Positions 33,393 to 36,618 of a DNA stretch of 48,357 nt are shown one piece after another. The DNA is taken from IMG/VR virus record IMGVR_UViG_2718217867_000003, positions 1 through 48,357 of that record. One strand, given 5' to 3'. The position numbers and the translations under genes are program-made. The DNA is from a virus. Lineage: Duplodnaviria; Heunggongvirae; Uroviricota; Caudoviricetes. The notes under the pieces are model-generated. The model was not told the origin of the DNA and did not search any database. It worked only from the letters and a program-made list of their open reading frames with translations. Position 1 is the first letter of the stretch. Each line of letters opens with the position of its first letter.

Positions 33393-33665
33393 TTCTCAAT
33401 CTCTCGATGGCGCAGCGCAGCAGATGCCAGTTGTTCAGGCTGACGTATGAAGTATAAATAAACTGGCTCCAGTGTAAAGCCCCCACCTTTATGGAATAAA
33501 AACCAAACAACAGATTGCTGGGATACAAACAACGCTTATTATTAAAAGCGGTTAAACAAATTAAATTTTAATGTTATGCAAATCTGCCAGATCACCATAA
33601 TATCTCATTTGAAAACCGCTGAAATAACAACCCTACCAGGGTTAAGAATATTAAGGTGAGTAAAT

Positions 33666-33752
33666 ATGGAAAACAACAAATTTGCACATTACGTTCCTTT
33701 TTTATCTGTAATACTTTTTGTTTTATGCTGTGCGTGGGCATTATTTTTATAA
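33666..33752 (+). CDS. possible small hydrophobic peptide (28 aa, MENNKFAHYVPFLSVILFVLCCAWALFL)
   Basis: ATG with AAGGTGAG SD; single predicted TM helix; about 300 nt upstream of nuclease-domain gene on same strand. Confidence 0.3.
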   Translation: MENNKFAHYVPFLSVILFVLCCAWALFL

Positions 33753-34046
33753 AAAAATTCACAGATAAAATATACCTGCCAAAGCTGATTAAGTGCGGGT
33801 GCGTTGAGGAGGCCTGACACATCAGAGGTGGCGAGGGATTCTTCATCATCTAACCAGCAACCTTAACTTTGGGATTCACTAATTTAAGTACGCTAAAGGT
33901 GTTAAAACCCCGAGCCACCCAGGGACTGCTTGAAAAGTATATAAAAATCAATATCAACTATCGATTTTACCTAAATGTTATGATATAAAAAGTTAGCGTA
34001 TCATTACGCATCCACAATATTCGAAGGTTTCCATATTCAATGTAAG

Positions 34047-34946
34047 ATGTCGACAAAGGCCTATTATTCTATGGATATCATAACAAAAATCATTGAAGAC
34101 GCTCAAAAATTACAGTTATCCTCTGCAAATGAAGCTGAAACACGCCTTAAGATCATAGATCAAATACTCTTTGAAGTATTGAAATGGACTAGGGATGATG
34201 TATCGGTAGAAACTCGAGTTAGCGAAGATGGCGAGACTACTTTTGCTGATTATGTCATTAAAACAGCAAGTACTGCGTTTATAATTGAAGCAAAAAAAAT
34301 TGGTCAGGCATTCGACACAAAACAATTCGATAGGAGACTGAAACTCAACAACAATAATCTTTCTGGTCCTTTTGGAGATGCCATAATTCAAGCAAGAGAT
34401 TATTGTAGAAAACTGAGCATTCAATTTGCTGTTGTAACTAATGGTGAACAATGGGTTATATTCCCAGCAAATAGAACGGATCAAGTTGCATTCAACTCAT
34501 CTTACGCAATTGTATTTAACAATTTACAAAGTGCACTTAAAGATGACTATACAGAATTTTATGACTTATTATCAAGAAAAGCAGTTATAAACTCTAGCCT
34601 TGAAGTTACTTTATTAGGCAACAGGGAAGATCAAATAGAAGAAAGACGCTTAAAAAATACAGTCCGTAAAAGTATCTCTTATGATGCAAAGAATCCAATA
34701 TATCCATTAGTCGAAGAAGCAATTATCACTTCATTTTCAGACACAATAACAGAAATCGACAATGATCTTTTTGAAAGATGTTATGTAAATACTCCTGACA
34801 GGATGAAATTTGATAGGCGTATTAATATGCACATATCAAAAAGTCAACACCTCTTTAGTACGGCGCCTATAAGACCGATGCAAAAAAGAGATGCTAATGC
34901 TTTTAAAGAATCATTATTACGAGCAAAAAGAATTCAAAACCTTTAG
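34047..34946 (+). CDS. PD-(D/E)xK nuclease-domain protein (HsdR-N/Mrr-like); probably N-terminal part of a longer frameshifted gene
   Basis: 299-aa ORF; motif ...ETRLKIIDQILFEVLKW...FADYVIKTASTAFIIEAKK (D ... E-A-K) typical of type I restriction HsdR N-terminal/Mrr-like nucleases; about 33 percent GC. Confidence 0.55.
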   Translation: MSTKAYYSMDIITKIIEDAQKLQLSSANEAETRLKIIDQILFEVLKWTRDDVSVETRVSEDGETTFADYVIKTASTAFIIEAKKIGQAFDTKQFDRRLKLNNNNLSGPFGDAIIQARDYCRKLSIQFAVVTNGEQWVIFPANRTDQVAFNSSYAIVFNNLQSALKDDYTEFYDLLSRKAVINSSLEVTLLGNREDQIEERRLKNTVRKSISYDAKNPIYPLVEEAIITSFSDTITEIDNDLFERCYVNTPDRMKFDRRINMHISKSQHLFSTAPIRPMQKRDANAFKESLLRAKRIQNL

Positions 34947-35203
34947 CTATTGTTATATTAGGAACTGTTGGCGCAGGTAAAACCACATTTTTACATTACA
35001 CACGAAATATATCTGCCGCATCGTATTTCGAAAAATTAAATAATAAACCCTATCCTCATTGGATAAAGGTGGATTTTTTACAATACACGAATGACGAGTC
35101 CCCTATAGACTACATTTATAATATAATAAAAAACTATATTATAAGTGATCCATTTTTTGCAATTATGAGCTATGCATACAGAACGCATACAAAGATGAGA
35201 TAA
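34907..35203 (+). pseudogene. P-loop (Walker A) segment in a second frame, no start codon
   Basis: frame open 34907-35203 encodes ..PLAIVILGTVGAGKTTFLHY..; no ATG/GTG/TTG start in frame; overlaps end of upstream ORF at an A5 run (34925-34929). Confidence 0.5.
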
Positions 35204-35361
35204 CTTCTATAAAAAAAGGACCTGCATTTCTTATTGCGAAGGATGAAGAAAAAATCAATCAACTAATTACAAACAAGCTACAAGCTGATTTTGACAAAGT
35301 TAAGCCATATGCTGATACTTTAATCAGCTATGCAACGAAAAACACACCTATTTTTCTTGTT

Positions 35362-36519
35362 GTGGATAACGTTGATCAACTCAGCGAGGAAGTCCAATCT
35401 CAAATTTTCACTGATTGTGTAGCATTTTCCCAGAGACTCAAATGTAATCTTGTTATATCCTTACGTAATTCTACATATGTTGAACACCGTAACTCCCCAG
35501 CGTTTAACGCATTTGATTTCGACCCTATTCTTATTGAACCACCAAAAGTAGAGTCTGTTTTATCTAAACGTTTTTTCTTAGCCAAAAATATGCTTGAAGG
35601 AGAAGAAGGTGATTTTCTTTCAGATAATGGGATAAGATTTCACGTTGATAACAAAGCCGATTTAATAAGCTTATTACAAAGCTCTGTTTTAGGAACAGAA
35701 ATCGGCAATTTACTTGAAGTACTTGCTGCCGGAGACATCAGAAATGCACTAAGAATGACAAGAGAATTTATTGAACATGGTTATACAAATCCAGGTAAAG
35801 CTATGCGAATATATAGTGAAGGTGGCAACTATATATTGCCTAAGCATGAGGCTCTCAGAGCGATACTGCTAGGGAACCAAGCTGTATATTCAGAGGCTTA
35901 TTCATTGGTTGGCAACCCATTTGATTCAAGACTGGGAAGGACCAACTTCCAACTTTTGAGACTATTCGTTTTAGCAGCATTAGTCCAATATAGTGCTGAT
36001 CCTGCATTTCAATATATCGACGGAATTGACATCCGAAAACAACTTAGAAAAATTGGTGTCGGTGATGATGACTCAATTGCCATACTGCGTGATTTATGTA
36101 AATTACGCTTTATAAGCACGGCTGGTCATGATGTACCAGAATTCAAATCAAGTTTTTATCCTACAAGACTTGGGGGATATATTACTAAGGAGCTAATCAG
36201 TAATTTTACATTTGTTGAATGTACTATGATGGACTCATTCATTGCGAACGAAAAAGTTTGGGAAGATCTAAAAGGATTTGAACGTTTAATCATAAACTCC
36301 TCCAGCGATGTAATCAAAAGACTAGAATATAGAAAGGAACGAGCACAAATATTTTTTGATTATATGCTAGAACTATATAGTTCGCTGCTTGAGGAAGCCA
36401 ATAAACGTGTATTACCTAAAGAATGGCGCACCAATCCTTTGCAGGAAGCTAGATATTCCTTCATTGAAAATCTAAACAAAGCCCTGCAATCAGCACAGAG
36501 AAATTACGGGGAAAAATAA
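35362..36519 (+). CDS. NTPase C-terminal portion (frame beginning inside Walker B-like motif FLVVDNVDQ)
   Basis: third frame open from 35149; track ORF starts at GTG inside hhhhDxhD motif; T6 run at 35153-35158 in overlap with previous frame. Confidence 0.55.
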   Translation: MDNVDQLSEEVQSQIFTDCVAFSQRLKCNLVISLRNSTYVEHRNSPAFNAFDFDPILIEPPKVESVLSKRFFLAKNMLEGEEGDFLSDNGIRFHVDNKADLISLLQSSVLGTEIGNLLEVLAAGDIRNALRMTREFIEHGYTNPGKAMRIYSEGGNYILPKHEALRAILLGNQAVYSEAYSLVGNPFDSRLGRTNFQLLRLFVLAALVQYSADPAFQYIDGIDIRKQLRKIGVGDDDSIAILRDLCKLRFISTAGHDVPEFKSSFYPTRLGGYITKELISNFTFVECTMMDSFIANEKVWEDLKGFERLIINSSSDVIKRLEYRKERAQIFFDYMLELYSSLLEEANKRVLPKEWRTNPLQEARYSFIENLNKALQSAQRNYGEK

Positions 36520-36545
36520 AAAAAAGCCACACCTTACGGTGTGGC
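36520..36545. terminator. bidirectional terminator between island and prophage genes
   Basis: A-run, 8-bp stem GCCACACC/GGTGTGGC with TTAC loop; T8 on minus strand. Confidence 0.6.
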
Positions 36546-36618
36546 TCCTCTGTTGGTTTTATAGGATCATTCCTTTTTGAGGTGGTCATTATATTCCCTA
36601 TCTATTTTCCTGGCAATA

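What the first reader, a model, noticed from the sequence alone, without database searches (positions are those of the whole stretch)
33400..36560. AT-rich opposite-strand island encoding a nuclease plus STAND-like NTPase across three frames
A ~3-kb block of about 33 percent GC sits in the Nin region on the strand opposite to every flanking prophage gene. Frame 1 (34047-34946) carries a PD-(D/E)xK nuclease signature (FADY...IIEAKK). Frame 2 (34907-35203) carries Walker A (GTVGAGKTT) but has no start codon. Frame 3 (35149-36519) begins inside a Walker B-like motif (FLVVDNVD) and continues into about 380 aa of helical sequence. Each junction lies on a homopolymer (A5 at 34925-29, T6 at 35153-58), and adding one base at each would give one ~825-aa protein. 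A nuclease effector followed by a STAND-like NTPase and a C-terminal domain resembles single-protein antiphage sensors (Avs-like), but this one is unusually compact and I cannot assign it to a named family.
Basis: partly seen in the sequence, partly recalled or inferred. Interest (0 to 1): 0.85.

Follow-up and report, generated by a model that had tools for sequence, protein, structure and literature searches.

The report
Broken DS-14 antiphage gene, Rac prophage
This is a disabled copy, broken by two one-base deletions, of DS-14, a single-gene nuclease-plus-ATPase phage-defence system shown to work in 2026; it sits in a swappable cargo slot of a Rac-like prophage of E. coli, so it is a known gene, here dead.

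Summary
Bases 34047-36519 (+) are one gene split over three frames by -1 deletions at the A5 run (34925-29) and the T6 run (35153-58). Seven other complete E. coli genomes carry the same gene intact, with A6 and T7 (816 aa, WP_040091717.1). That exact protein is DS-14 of the DefensePredictor study (Science 2026). Cloned alone with its native promoter, it protected E. coli against Bas50, phage Candy and, weakly, RB69. The repaired window protein matches it at 812 of 816 residues.

The architecture is an HsdR-N-type PD-(D/E)xK nuclease (E21, D60, ExK 73-75, QxxxY), then a P-loop NTPase with lid and winged helix, then a helical tail. The NTPase lies on the ORC/Cdc6-STAND border. "Avs-like" is therefore a resemblance, not membership.

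The T-run frameshift is real: independent assemblies share it. The A-run deletion is private to strain C8, so it is either a second hit or an assembly error.

The cargo proper is 33841-36620 (34.8% GC). It fills a slot between the DUF1367 and DUF977 genes, and related prophages hold other defence-like genes there.

Verdict: a known system and a pseudogene allele, so low novelty. DS-14's mechanism is still unstudied.

The parts
33400..33840 (.). Conserved AT-rich intergenic stretch of Rac-like prophages, downstream of the DUF1367 gene. It is NOT part of the variable cargo.
   Evidence: About 3,400 E. coli records match only query bases 1-441 at 90-97% identity. Homology to other Rac-like prophages ends at 33840. 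GC is 37.9%.
33841..34046 (+). Cargo-specific upstream region of the DS-14 gene, presumed to hold the native promoter.
   Evidence: The left cargo boundary is at 33840/33841. DS-14 was active when cloned with its native upstream region on a promoterless vector. The simple consensus scan found no strong sigma-70 match here.
34047..34946 (+). Gene fragment 1 (frame 1). It encodes the HsdR-N-type PD-(D/E)xK nuclease domain plus a helical linker. After the first frameshift it ends prematurely as ...RAKRIQNL*. The PGAP-type start is at 34071.
   Evidence: Pfam HSDR_N_2 scores 26.7 bits against a cut-off of 25 and matches 29 of 30 homologues. E21, D60, E73, K75 and Q107 are invariant in 102-103 of 103 family members, and Y111 in 102. 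Motif coordinates: ANEAETR 34125-45, FADY 34242-53, IEAKK 34284-98, QARDY 34389-403.
34925..34929 (+). Frameshift 1. The run is A5 here and A6 in intact alleles, a -1 deletion private to strain C8.
   Evidence: Alignment to strain 789. Among 8 independent sequences only C8 has this deletion. The resulting 291-aa fragment is recorded on a single contig, the C8 chromosome.
34907..35203 (+). Gene fragment 2 (frame 2 open stretch, no start codon). It holds Walker A, GTVGAGKTT, at 34961-34987.
   Evidence: Walker A G298, G301, G303 and K304 are conserved in 102-103 of 103 family members.
35153..35158 (+). Frameshift 2. The run is T6 here and T7 in intact alleles, a -1 deletion that is real and shared by other E. 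coli lineages.
   Evidence: The same deletion occurs in L011 (plus 18 similar places), L012, L015 and L016. N-terminal fragments ending ...DPFFAIMSYAYRTHTKMR are recorded on 48 contigs.
35149..36519 (+). Gene fragment 3 (frame 3). It holds Walker B FLVVDNVDQ (35353-79), the sensor-1 region ISLRNST (35455-75), the lid motif AAGDIRNAL with an invariant Arg (35725-51), a winged helix and a C-terminal helical tail. The stop codon is at 36517-19.
36520..36551 (.). GC-rich hairpin between the convergent DS-14 and DUF977 genes; a terminator-like site.
   Evidence: 14-pair stem with 6 G-C pairs and a T tract on the minus strand. It lies directly after the DS-14 stop codon.
36621..36629 (.). Right boundary of the variable cargo slot. 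Homology to other Rac-like prophages resumes here, at the 3' end of the DUF977 gene.
   Evidence: blastn against L017-L020. The DUF977 gene is confirmed by Pfam at 4.6e-28.

Best explanation
The region is a pseudogenised allele of DS-14. DS-14 is a stand-alone antiphage gene carried as opposite-strand, AT-rich cargo in a variable slot of a Rac-like lambdoid prophage of E. coli strain C8. The slot lies between the replication-module gene DUF977 and the DUF1367/YbcO/Q-like genes.

Shown:
- The intact 816-aa protein exists in other E. coli and is 99.5% identical to the repaired window protein.
- Expressed alone from its own promoter, that protein protects E. coli against a Vequintavirus (Bas50) and T-even-like phages (Candy; RB69 weakly).
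- It has an N-terminal HsdR-N-type PD-(D/E)xK nuclease (E...D...ExK...QxxxY).
- It has a central P-loop NTPase with a lid and a winged helix, of the ORC/Cdc6-STAND type, and a helical C-terminal tail.
- The nuclease and NTPase motifs are essentially invariant down to about 20% identity across the family.

Inferred mechanism:
- The NTPase acts as a nucleotide-dependent switch.
- When a phage-specific cue is recognised, probably by the winged-helix and C-terminal module, the NTPase drives oligomerisation.
- Oligomerisation brings the N-terminal nuclease domains together to cut DNA, which stops the infection.
- The family-wide Walker B motif D-N-x-D, in place of D-E or D-D, suggests slow hydrolysis, as expected for a switch rather than a motor.

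In this window the gene cannot make that protein. The A-run deletion truncates it after the nuclease and linker. The T-run deletion separates Walker A from Walker B. The T-run lesion is a genuine inherited mutation. The A-run lesion is private to C8, so it is either a later second hit in an already dead gene or an assembly error.

The confidence of 0.85 refers to the identity claim (a broken DS-14 allele in a prophage cargo slot). The inferred activation scheme on its own deserves about 0.5.
For: Identity with DS-14:
- The window is E. coli C8 (100% match). Seven complete genomes carry a 3203-nt version against 3201 nt here, with a single 816-aa CDS, WP_040091717.1.
- The repaired window protein matches at 812 of 816 residues, with 9 synonymous and 4 non-synonymous changes.
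- WP_040091717.1 is working id RMOR, named DS-14, scored defensive TRUE and replicated TRUE.
- Protection in log10 units: Bas50 4.7, Candy 3.7, RB69 1.15. The gene was tested with its native promoter on a low-copy plasmid.
- Candy is a Tevenvirinae phage and Bas50 a Vequintavirus.

Domains:
- Pfam HSDR_N_2 and KAP_NTPase score above their cut-offs. nSTAND5, AAA_16 and AAA_22 give sub-threshold hits in 17-27 of 30 homologues.
- The AF2 model has pLDDT 82.
- The DS-14 authors' HHpred assigns BpuSI_N PDDEXK to residues 27-167 and ORC1 AAA+ to residues 270-569, both at 0.99.
- Motifs are conserved in 103 full-length members with a median 22% identity to DS-14.

Stand-alone and mobile:
- There are no conserved neighbours across Pseudomonas, Endozoicomonas and Marinomonas loci.
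- Homologues occur on 29 plasmids.
- The profile search found 578 clusters (50% identity) at E<1e-30. Nearly all the full-length ones listed are 790-880 aa.

Frameshifts.

Slot variability.
Against: - No mechanistic experiment exists for DS-14. There are no catalytic mutants, no identified trigger and no abortive-infection test in the paper. The activation scheme is therefore an analogy with other nuclease-NTPase defence proteins.
- The trigger could equally be DNA rather than protein, because the best structural matches are DNA-loading AAA+ proteins.
- The assignment of R466 and R558 as sensor or finger arginines rests on motif resemblance, not on a tested alignment.
- The window's two lesions were judged without reads, so the status of the A-run deletion is open.
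- recE in the same prophage also has a lone -1 in a T run. It is otherwise 100% identical to other genomes (at least 7 listed; about 1,400 at >=99%), which looks like an assembly error.
Confidence: 0.85

Rival explanations
1. Both frameshifts are sequencing or assembly artefacts (homopolymer undercalls), and strain C8 really carries an intact, functional DS-14.
For: Both lesions are -1 in A or T homopolymers. The A-run deletion is seen in no other assembly. recE in the same prophage has a single -1 in a T6 run within 2.75 kb that are otherwise 100% identical to other genomes (at least 7 listed; about 1,400 at >=99%).
Against: The T-run deletion is present in several independent assemblies (L011 plus 18 similar places, L012, L015, L016). 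The resulting split ORFs are recorded on dozens to hundreds of contigs, so it is a real allele that C8 plausibly inherited. A 50-kb core region of the C8 genome has 0 frameshifted genes out of 47, so the assembly is not generally riddled with indels. C8 also carries 7 private substitutions in the 5' half, so its allele is genuinely distinct.
Confidence: 0.08
2. The homopolymer tracts act as a slipped-strand ON/OFF switch (phase variation) for a costly defence gene, or the frameshifts are bypassed by transcriptional or translational slippage. On this view the locus is conditionally functional rather than dead.
For: Several independent indels fall in homopolymers of this AT-rich gene: the A8 run at nt 222, the A6 run at nt 855 and the T7 run at nt 1084. 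The T6 state occurs on two SNP backgrounds, and a T7 sequence (L014) shares the background of the T6 group. This could mean recurrent slippage.
Against: Tracts of 6-8 bases are short for efficient phase variation or RNA-polymerase slippage (established knowledge). C8 would need two independent reversions. Other common null alleles are not slippage events: a nonsense allele truncated after ...YTND is recorded on about 36 contigs, and homologues on Serratia plasmids are interrupted by IS903B. That pattern is ordinary gene loss. L014 is an indel-rich long-read assembly, which weakens the homoplasy argument.
Confidence: 0.05
3. Alternative mechanism: DS-14 is a bona fide compact Avs-type STAND pattern-recognition receptor. 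Its C-terminal domain binds one conserved phage protein, and this triggers tetramer or oligomer formation and nuclease firing.
For: An N-terminal nuclease followed by an NTPase and a C-terminal domain is the Avs layout. nSTAND_NTPase5 hits occur in 27 of 30 homologues. Apaf-1 and CED-4 rank among the top Foldseek hits. DefensePredictor lists bNACHT09 as the closest known defence homologue, at 54% coverage. The phage spectrum is narrow and phage-specific. Many STAND families sense single phage proteins.
Confidence: 0.3
4. Alternative mechanism: DS-14 is an ATP-dependent, restriction-like enzyme. Its ORC/Cdc6-like AAA+ and winged-helix module loads directly on phage DNA, for example on modified DNA or a replication intermediate, and the HsdR-type nuclease cuts it without killing the cell.
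For: The best structural relatives all assemble on DNA: ORC/Cdc6, TnsC and BrxC. The nuclease is of the type I/IV restriction kind, with hits to HSDR_N, BpuSI_N and MmeI_N. One plasmid copy is annotated as a predicted type IV restriction endonuclease. Two of the three sensitive phages are T-even-like, a group that carries modified cytosines (established knowledge).
Against: T4 is not among the phages restricted by DS-14 in the rows read. As far as I know, Bas50 (Vequintavirus) has no cytosine hypermodification; this is from memory. No DNA-binding test exists.
Confidence: 0.25

Closest known systems
DS-14 (working id RMOR; WP_040091717.1), DefensePredictor study, Science 2026 (PMC13092281)
   Same: It is the same gene at the same Rac-prophage position. 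The repaired window protein matches at 812 of 816 residues. The intact protein alone confers phage resistance.
   Different: The window copy carries two -1 frameshifts, so it cannot encode the full protein. DS-14 itself has no published mechanism.
Avs / bNACHT antiviral STAND NTPases with N-terminal nuclease effectors (for example Avs2-4, bNACHT09)
   Different: DS-14 is about 816 aa, against typically 1,500 aa or more. It has no repeat-type sensor and no PADLOC Avs or NLR hit. Its Pfam STAND hits are below threshold. Its Walker B is DNxD.
ORC/Cdc6-type initiator AAA+ ATPases and their relatives BrxC (BREX) and TnsC
   Different: DS-14 has a fused nuclease, is stand-alone with no BREX or transposon partners, and has Asn in place of the Walker B Glu. 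There is no sequence-level family membership.
N-terminal nuclease domain of type I restriction HsdR (Pfam HSDR_N / HSDR_N_2; BpuSI_N-like)
   Same: The Pfam hit is above the gathering score. The motifs D...ExK...QxxxY and TNG are present and invariant.
   Different: It is fused to an ORC/STAND-like NTPase rather than an SF2 helicase motor. No HsdM or HsdS partners are present.
KAP-family P-loop NTPases (for example RdrA of RADAR)
   Different: There is no hydrophobic or transmembrane insert; the maximum Kyte-Doolittle 19-residue window is 1.32. Structural similarity is lower than to ORC/Cdc6. No RdrB-like partner is present.

Membership tests
DS-14 (DefensePredictor system 14) | Sequence identity with the validated protein WP_040091717.1 over its full length | tested here: met
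   The DNA is 99.5% identical over 3.2 kb. The repaired translation matches at 812 of 816 residues. The accession was found in Tables S6 and S8 of PMC13092281.
DS-14 (DefensePredictor system 14) | One uninterrupted ORF of about 816 aa encoding nuclease, NTPase and C-terminal region | tested here: not met
   Two -1 frameshifts split it into three frames. The window copy is therefore a pseudogene allele of the family.
DS-14 (DefensePredictor system 14) | Confers phage resistance when expressed alone | not testable with these tools
   This was shown for the intact allele in the paper. The frameshifted allele has not been tested.
Avs / antiviral STAND NTPases | STAND-type NTPase recognised by family models (NACHT, NB-ARC, nSTAND, or Avs HMMs) | tested here: not met
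   nSTAND_NTPase5 scores 22 bits against a cut-off of 34. NACHT matches only 4 of 30 homologues at E>1e-3. PADLOC gives no Avs or NLR hit at E<=1.
Avs / antiviral STAND NTPases | Large C-terminal repeat or sensor domain (TPR-like, WD40 and similar; sensors of 400 aa or more were the ones analysed) | tested here: not met
   The model shows a lid (~494-601), a winged helix (~630-698) and about 115 aa of helices, with no repeats.
Avs / antiviral STAND NTPases | N-terminal effector domain such as a nuclease | tested here: met
   HSDR_N_2 PD-(D/E)xK domain with invariant catalytic residues.
ORC/Cdc6-type AAA+ (initiator clade) | ATPase plus lid plus winged-helix fold | tested here: met
ORC/Cdc6-type AAA+ (initiator clade) | Canonical Walker B hhhhDE and a sensor-2 arginine | tested here: inconclusive
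   Walker B is D433-N434-x-D436 in 103 of 103 members, with Asn where Glu is expected. R558, in a G[DN]xR motif in the lid, is conserved in 102 of 103. Its equivalence to sensor 2 rests on motif resemblance only.
KAP-family NTPase | Pfam KAP_NTPase above the gathering score | tested here: met
   23.8-24 bits against a cut-off of 20. The match covers only profile positions 12-171 of 293.
KAP-family NTPase | Transmembrane or hydrophobic insert in the NTPase domain (typical of many KAP members; from memory) | tested here: not met
   The maximum Kyte-Doolittle 19-residue mean is 1.32, below the usual 1.6.
Type I restriction HsdR N-terminal nuclease domain | Pfam HSDR_N_2 above cut-off, with D...(D/E)xK...QxxxY motifs | tested here: met
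   26.7 bits against a cut-off of 25, and 29 of 30 homologues match. D60, E73, K75 and Q107 are invariant in 103 of 103 members, and Y111 in 102 of 103.
BREX (BrxC) | Operon with brxA/B, pglX and pglZ partners | tested here: not met
   The neighbours are prophage genes on the opposite strand. Homologues elsewhere have unrelated neighbours.

The most novel reading that the evidence does not exclude
DS-14 may represent a mechanistic class distinct from protein-sensing Avs receptors. In this reading it is an ORC/Cdc6-like AAA+ loader with a hydrolysis-impaired Walker B (D-N-x-D, invariant across the family). It assembles on a phage DNA or replication structure and fires a type-I-restriction-type nuclease. 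Its frequent independent inactivation in E. coli (T7 run, A8 run, a nonsense allele, IS insertion in plasmid homologues) would then reflect a real autoimmunity cost, with the homopolymers serving as preferred break points.
Probability: 0.2. Interest if true: 0.55.

Novelty: already known. Interest (0 to 1): 0.22.

Why it matters
For annotation, the two "hypothetical proteins" in E. coli C8 (WP_249531563.1 and WP_000370785.1), and the hundreds of 385-aa and 342- to 377-aa fragments in draft genomes, are pieces of one known defence gene, DS-14. They should be flagged as a pseudogene.

For biology, the value is modest.
- It shows that a validated defence system is often found broken in natural E. 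coli, through several independent lesions.
- It places DS-14 in a defined cargo slot of Rac-type prophages. Related prophages fill that slot with other defence-like modules: an OLD-like nuclease with a methyltransferase, an S8 protease with an AAA ATPase, or unknown genes.
- It gives a family-wide motif map for mechanistic work that has not yet been done: E-D-ExK-QxxxY, Walker B DNxD, and the invariant R466 and R558.

Tried and rejected
- Sequence search of the PDB, with both the single protein and the family profile, found only P-loop noise.
- PADLOC gave no named system, only weak N-terminal nuclease hits to DrmMI. NCBIfam gave nothing.
- Rfam found no RNA family in 33200-36800. In particular there is no hok/sok RNA, although related prophages carry hok at this spot.
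- The consensus scan found no convincing promoter for the gene. The promoter-like count equals the shuffle expectation.
- tblastn against 50,697 deposited phage genomes found no homologue.
- The supplements of the 2026 STAND/Avs census are not held, so I could not check whether this family is one of its clades.
- "The C8 assembly is generally error-ridden" was rejected as a blanket explanation. A 50-kb core region has 0 frameshifted genes out of 47, and the T-run lesion is shared by other assemblies.
- Programmed frameshifting or phase variation was considered and judged unlikely (see rival explanations).
- KAP membership was considered. It passes the Pfam cut-off only marginally, lacks the hydrophobic insert, and is structurally further away than ORC/Cdc6.

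
Full report
**1. Observation.**
The window is the Rac-like prophage of E. coli strain C8 (NZ_CP010125.1, 100% identity). It is integrated next to ttcA and runs from intR to the tail-fibre genes.

GC falls from about 0.50 to 0.32-0.38 between about 33400 and 36600. 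It is 35.2% over 33400-36560 and 34.6% over the gene.

Frame 1 ends at 34946 and has an ATG at 34047. Frame 2 is open over 34907-35203. Frame 3 is open over 35149-36519.

The motifs are also present. FADY and IEAKK mark the PD-(D/E)xK nuclease. GTVGAGKTT is Walker A. FLVVDNVDQ is Walker B. The immediately flanking genes, DUF1367 and DUF977, are on the opposite strand.

**2. The frameshift prediction is correct.**
Seven other complete E. coli genomes carry the same 3.2 kb at 99.1-99.5% identity, but two bases longer, with a single CDS of 816 aa annotated as a P-loop NTPase fold protein.

Aligned to strain 789, the window lacks one A in an A6 run (34925-29) and one T in a T7 run (35153-58). It otherwise differs by 15 substitutions. 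Restoring both bases gives one ORF that matches the intact protein at 812 of 816 residues, with 9 synonymous and 4 non-synonymous changes.

**3. What the gene is.**
The intact protein, WP_040091717.1, appears in the supplementary tables of the DefensePredictor paper (Science 2026, PMC13092281). There it is working id RMOR.

- It had the highest defence log-odds of the tested set (14.7).
- It was scored defensive TRUE and replicated TRUE, and was named DS-14.
- Its category is remote defence homolog, with bNACHT09 as the closest known system at 54% coverage.

It was cloned alone with its native upstream region on a pSC101 plasmid in MG1655. It reduced plating of Bas50 by 4.7 logs, of Candy by 3.7 logs and of RB69 by 1.15 logs.

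Bas50 is a Vequintavirus. Candy is phiLS50-11, a Tevenvirinae phage.

The main text does not discuss DS-14, and no mutants or mechanism are reported. The family is therefore known and validated but mechanistically uncharacterised.

**4. Anatomy.**
Pfam gives HSDR_N_2 (26.7 bits, cut-off 25) and KAP_NTPase (23.8 bits, cut-off 20). nSTAND_NTPase5, AAA_16 and AAA_22 score below threshold.

Across 30 homologues, HSDR_N_2 matches 29. The NTPase hits are spread over nSTAND5 (27), AAA_16 (25), KAP (23) and AAA_22 (17).

An AlphaFold2 model built on a 30-sequence alignment has mean pLDDT 82. It shows these parts:

- a nuclease domain at residues 1 to ~170;
- a partly disordered helical linker;
- a P-loop domain at ~290-490;
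- a helical lid;
- a winged helix at ~630-698;
- a helical tail.

The DS-14 authors' HHpred gives a BpuSI_N-type PDDEXK domain (residues 27-167) and an ORC1-like AAA+ domain (residues 270-569). The NTPase therefore sits on the ORC/Cdc6-STAND border. "STAND-like" is a fair description, but Avs membership is not supported (see the membership tests).

**5. The family.**
A word-indexed search found more than 400 full-length homologues of about 815 aa, at 49-88% identity, in Gamma- and Betaproteobacteria. An exhaustive profile search found 2,033 clusters (50% identity) at E<=1e-3 and 578 at E<1e-30. Nearly all the full-length ones listed are 790-880 aa.

In 103 full-length members (19-49% identical to DS-14, median 22%), the following residues are conserved in 100-103 sequences:

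- nuclease: E21, D60, E73, K75, Q107 and Y111, giving E...D...ExK...QxxxY;
- G125;
- Walker A: GxxGxGK[TS];
- Walker B: D433-N434-x-D436;
- R466;
- R558.

The Asn in Walker B, where AAA+ and STAND proteins usually have an acidic residue, is a family signature. It suggests a slowly hydrolysing switch; this is an inference.

The gene stands alone. Its neighbours are unrelated in P. putida, in Endozoicomonas (a mobile-element context) and in Marinomonas (next to toxin-antitoxin genes). Homologues occur on 29 plasmids, 14 of them conjugative. None occur in deposited phage genomes.

**6. Are the frameshifts real?**
The exact 385-aa C-terminal ORF of the window is recorded on 187 contigs, in 376 index blocks. 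N-terminal fragments ending in the frame-2 peptide ...DPFFAIMSYAYRTHTKMR are recorded on 48 contigs.

DNA from independent assemblies shows the same T-run deletion. These are L011 (with 18 similar places), L012, L015 and L016. That lesion is therefore a genuine, inherited allele.

The A-run deletion is found only in C8.

Other E. coli carry different null alleles:

- a stop after ...YTND, recorded on about 36 contigs;
- a -1 in the A8 run;
- other indels.

Homologues on Serratia plasmids are interrupted by IS903B.

C8 also has a single -1 in a T6 run of recE (window 43591). The surrounding 2.75 kb are otherwise 100% identical to other genomes; at least 7 are listed and about 1,400 match at >=99%. 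This looks like either a very recent mutation or an assembly error.

A 50-kb core region of C8 has no frameshifted gene. Without reads, the A-run lesion cannot be assigned.

**7. Context.**
Homology between the window and other Rac-like prophages stops at 33840 and resumes at 36621-36629. The cargo is therefore about 2.78 kb at 34.8% GC.

The same slot holds other cargo in related prophages:

- hok, an OLD-like ATP-dependent nuclease (PADLOC HEC-04, 1.7e-34) and a C5 methyltransferase in strains FORC 064 and NCTC9087;
- hok and two unknown genes in MEI003;
- an S8 peptidase and an AAA ATPase in phage vB_EcoS-683R6. From memory, this pair resembles IetAS.

This is a defence-cargo hotspot at the position that lambda uses for ren and the start of the nin region.

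**8. Mechanism (inferred).**
By analogy with nuclease-NTPase defence proteins, DS-14 is most likely an autoinhibited monomer. A phage-specific cue is sensed through the winged-helix and C-terminal module, which triggers nucleotide-dependent oligomerisation. The HsdR-type nuclease domains are then brought together to cleave DNA.

These data do not decide whether the cue is a protein (Avs-like) or a DNA structure (ORC, BrxC or TnsC-like). They also do not decide whether the outcome is abortive infection or direct restriction. The rival explanations and the deciding experiments are listed in their own sections.

**9. Verdict.**
The object is a pseudogene allele of an already described and validated system. 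Novelty is low, and the remaining interest lies in DS-14's unstudied mechanism and its frequent natural inactivation.

Noticed in passing
window 43591 (recE, 42972-45571 +): recE is split by a single -1 deletion in a T6 run (T5 here). The surrounding 2.75 kb are otherwise 100% identical to other E. coli genomes (at least 7 listed; about 1,400 at >=99%). PGAP flags the gene as frameshifted. It is either an assembly error or a very recent mutation.
   Followed up: partly
window 33400-33840: This AT-rich, unannotated 441-bp stretch is conserved at 90-97% identity in about 3,400 E. coli records. In related Rac-like prophages a Hok/Gef toxin gene follows it directly, but the hok gene is absent here and Rfam finds no hok/sok RNA. 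Read by eye, it contains a 28-aa hydrophobic ORF (33666-33752 +, MENNKFAHYVPFLSVILFVLCCAWALFL) preceded by an AAGGTGA Shine-Dalgarno-like sequence. This could be an unannotated small membrane peptide.
   Followed up: partly
window 29946-30458 (+) and the AT-rich stretch ~30600-31600: This looks like a second cargo-like region, between the Q-like antiterminator gene and the lysis genes. It holds an opposite-strand 170-aa ORF (annotated hypothetical) with no Pfam match, followed by about 1 kb at 32-36% GC. Strain 789 carries TolA-like genes at the equivalent place.
   Followed up: partly
L017 5459-8653; L018 4962-7028; L019 4907-8300 (the same slot in other Rac-like prophages): The slot between the DUF1367 and DUF977 genes carries different cargo in different prophages. 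L017 has hok, an OLD-like ATP-dependent nuclease and a C5 methyltransferase. L018 has hok and two uncharacterised genes (310 and 184 aa). L019 has an S8 peptidase and an AAA ATPase. The MEI003 pair in L018 is unidentified.
   Followed up: partly
L011-L016 and proteins P0272-P0299 (E. coli DS-14 alleles); plasmid hits H69 and H70: DS-14 is inactivated in many natural isolates by several independent lesions. These are T7 to T6, a -1 in the A8 run, a nonsense codon after ...YTND, other truncations, and IS903B insertion in the Serratia plasmid homologues. This suggests either a fitness cost or relaxed selection.
   Followed up: partly
DS-14 family alignment (residues 433-436 of the intact protein; window 35362-35373): The Walker B motif is D-N-x-D in all 103 diverse family members examined. 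The Asn stands where AAA+ and STAND NTPases normally have a catalytic acidic residue.
   Followed up: partly
window 37078-37851 versus L001 9642-10403; window 38576-39364: The C8 versions of the DUF1627 gene and the ydaU-like replication gene have different annotated lengths and alleles from strain 789 (723 vs 762 nt and 789 vs 858 nt). The immunity region also differs (an HTH pair in C8, RacR/YdaS in strain 789). The prophage backbone is therefore mosaic around the conserved DS-14 slot.
   Followed up: no
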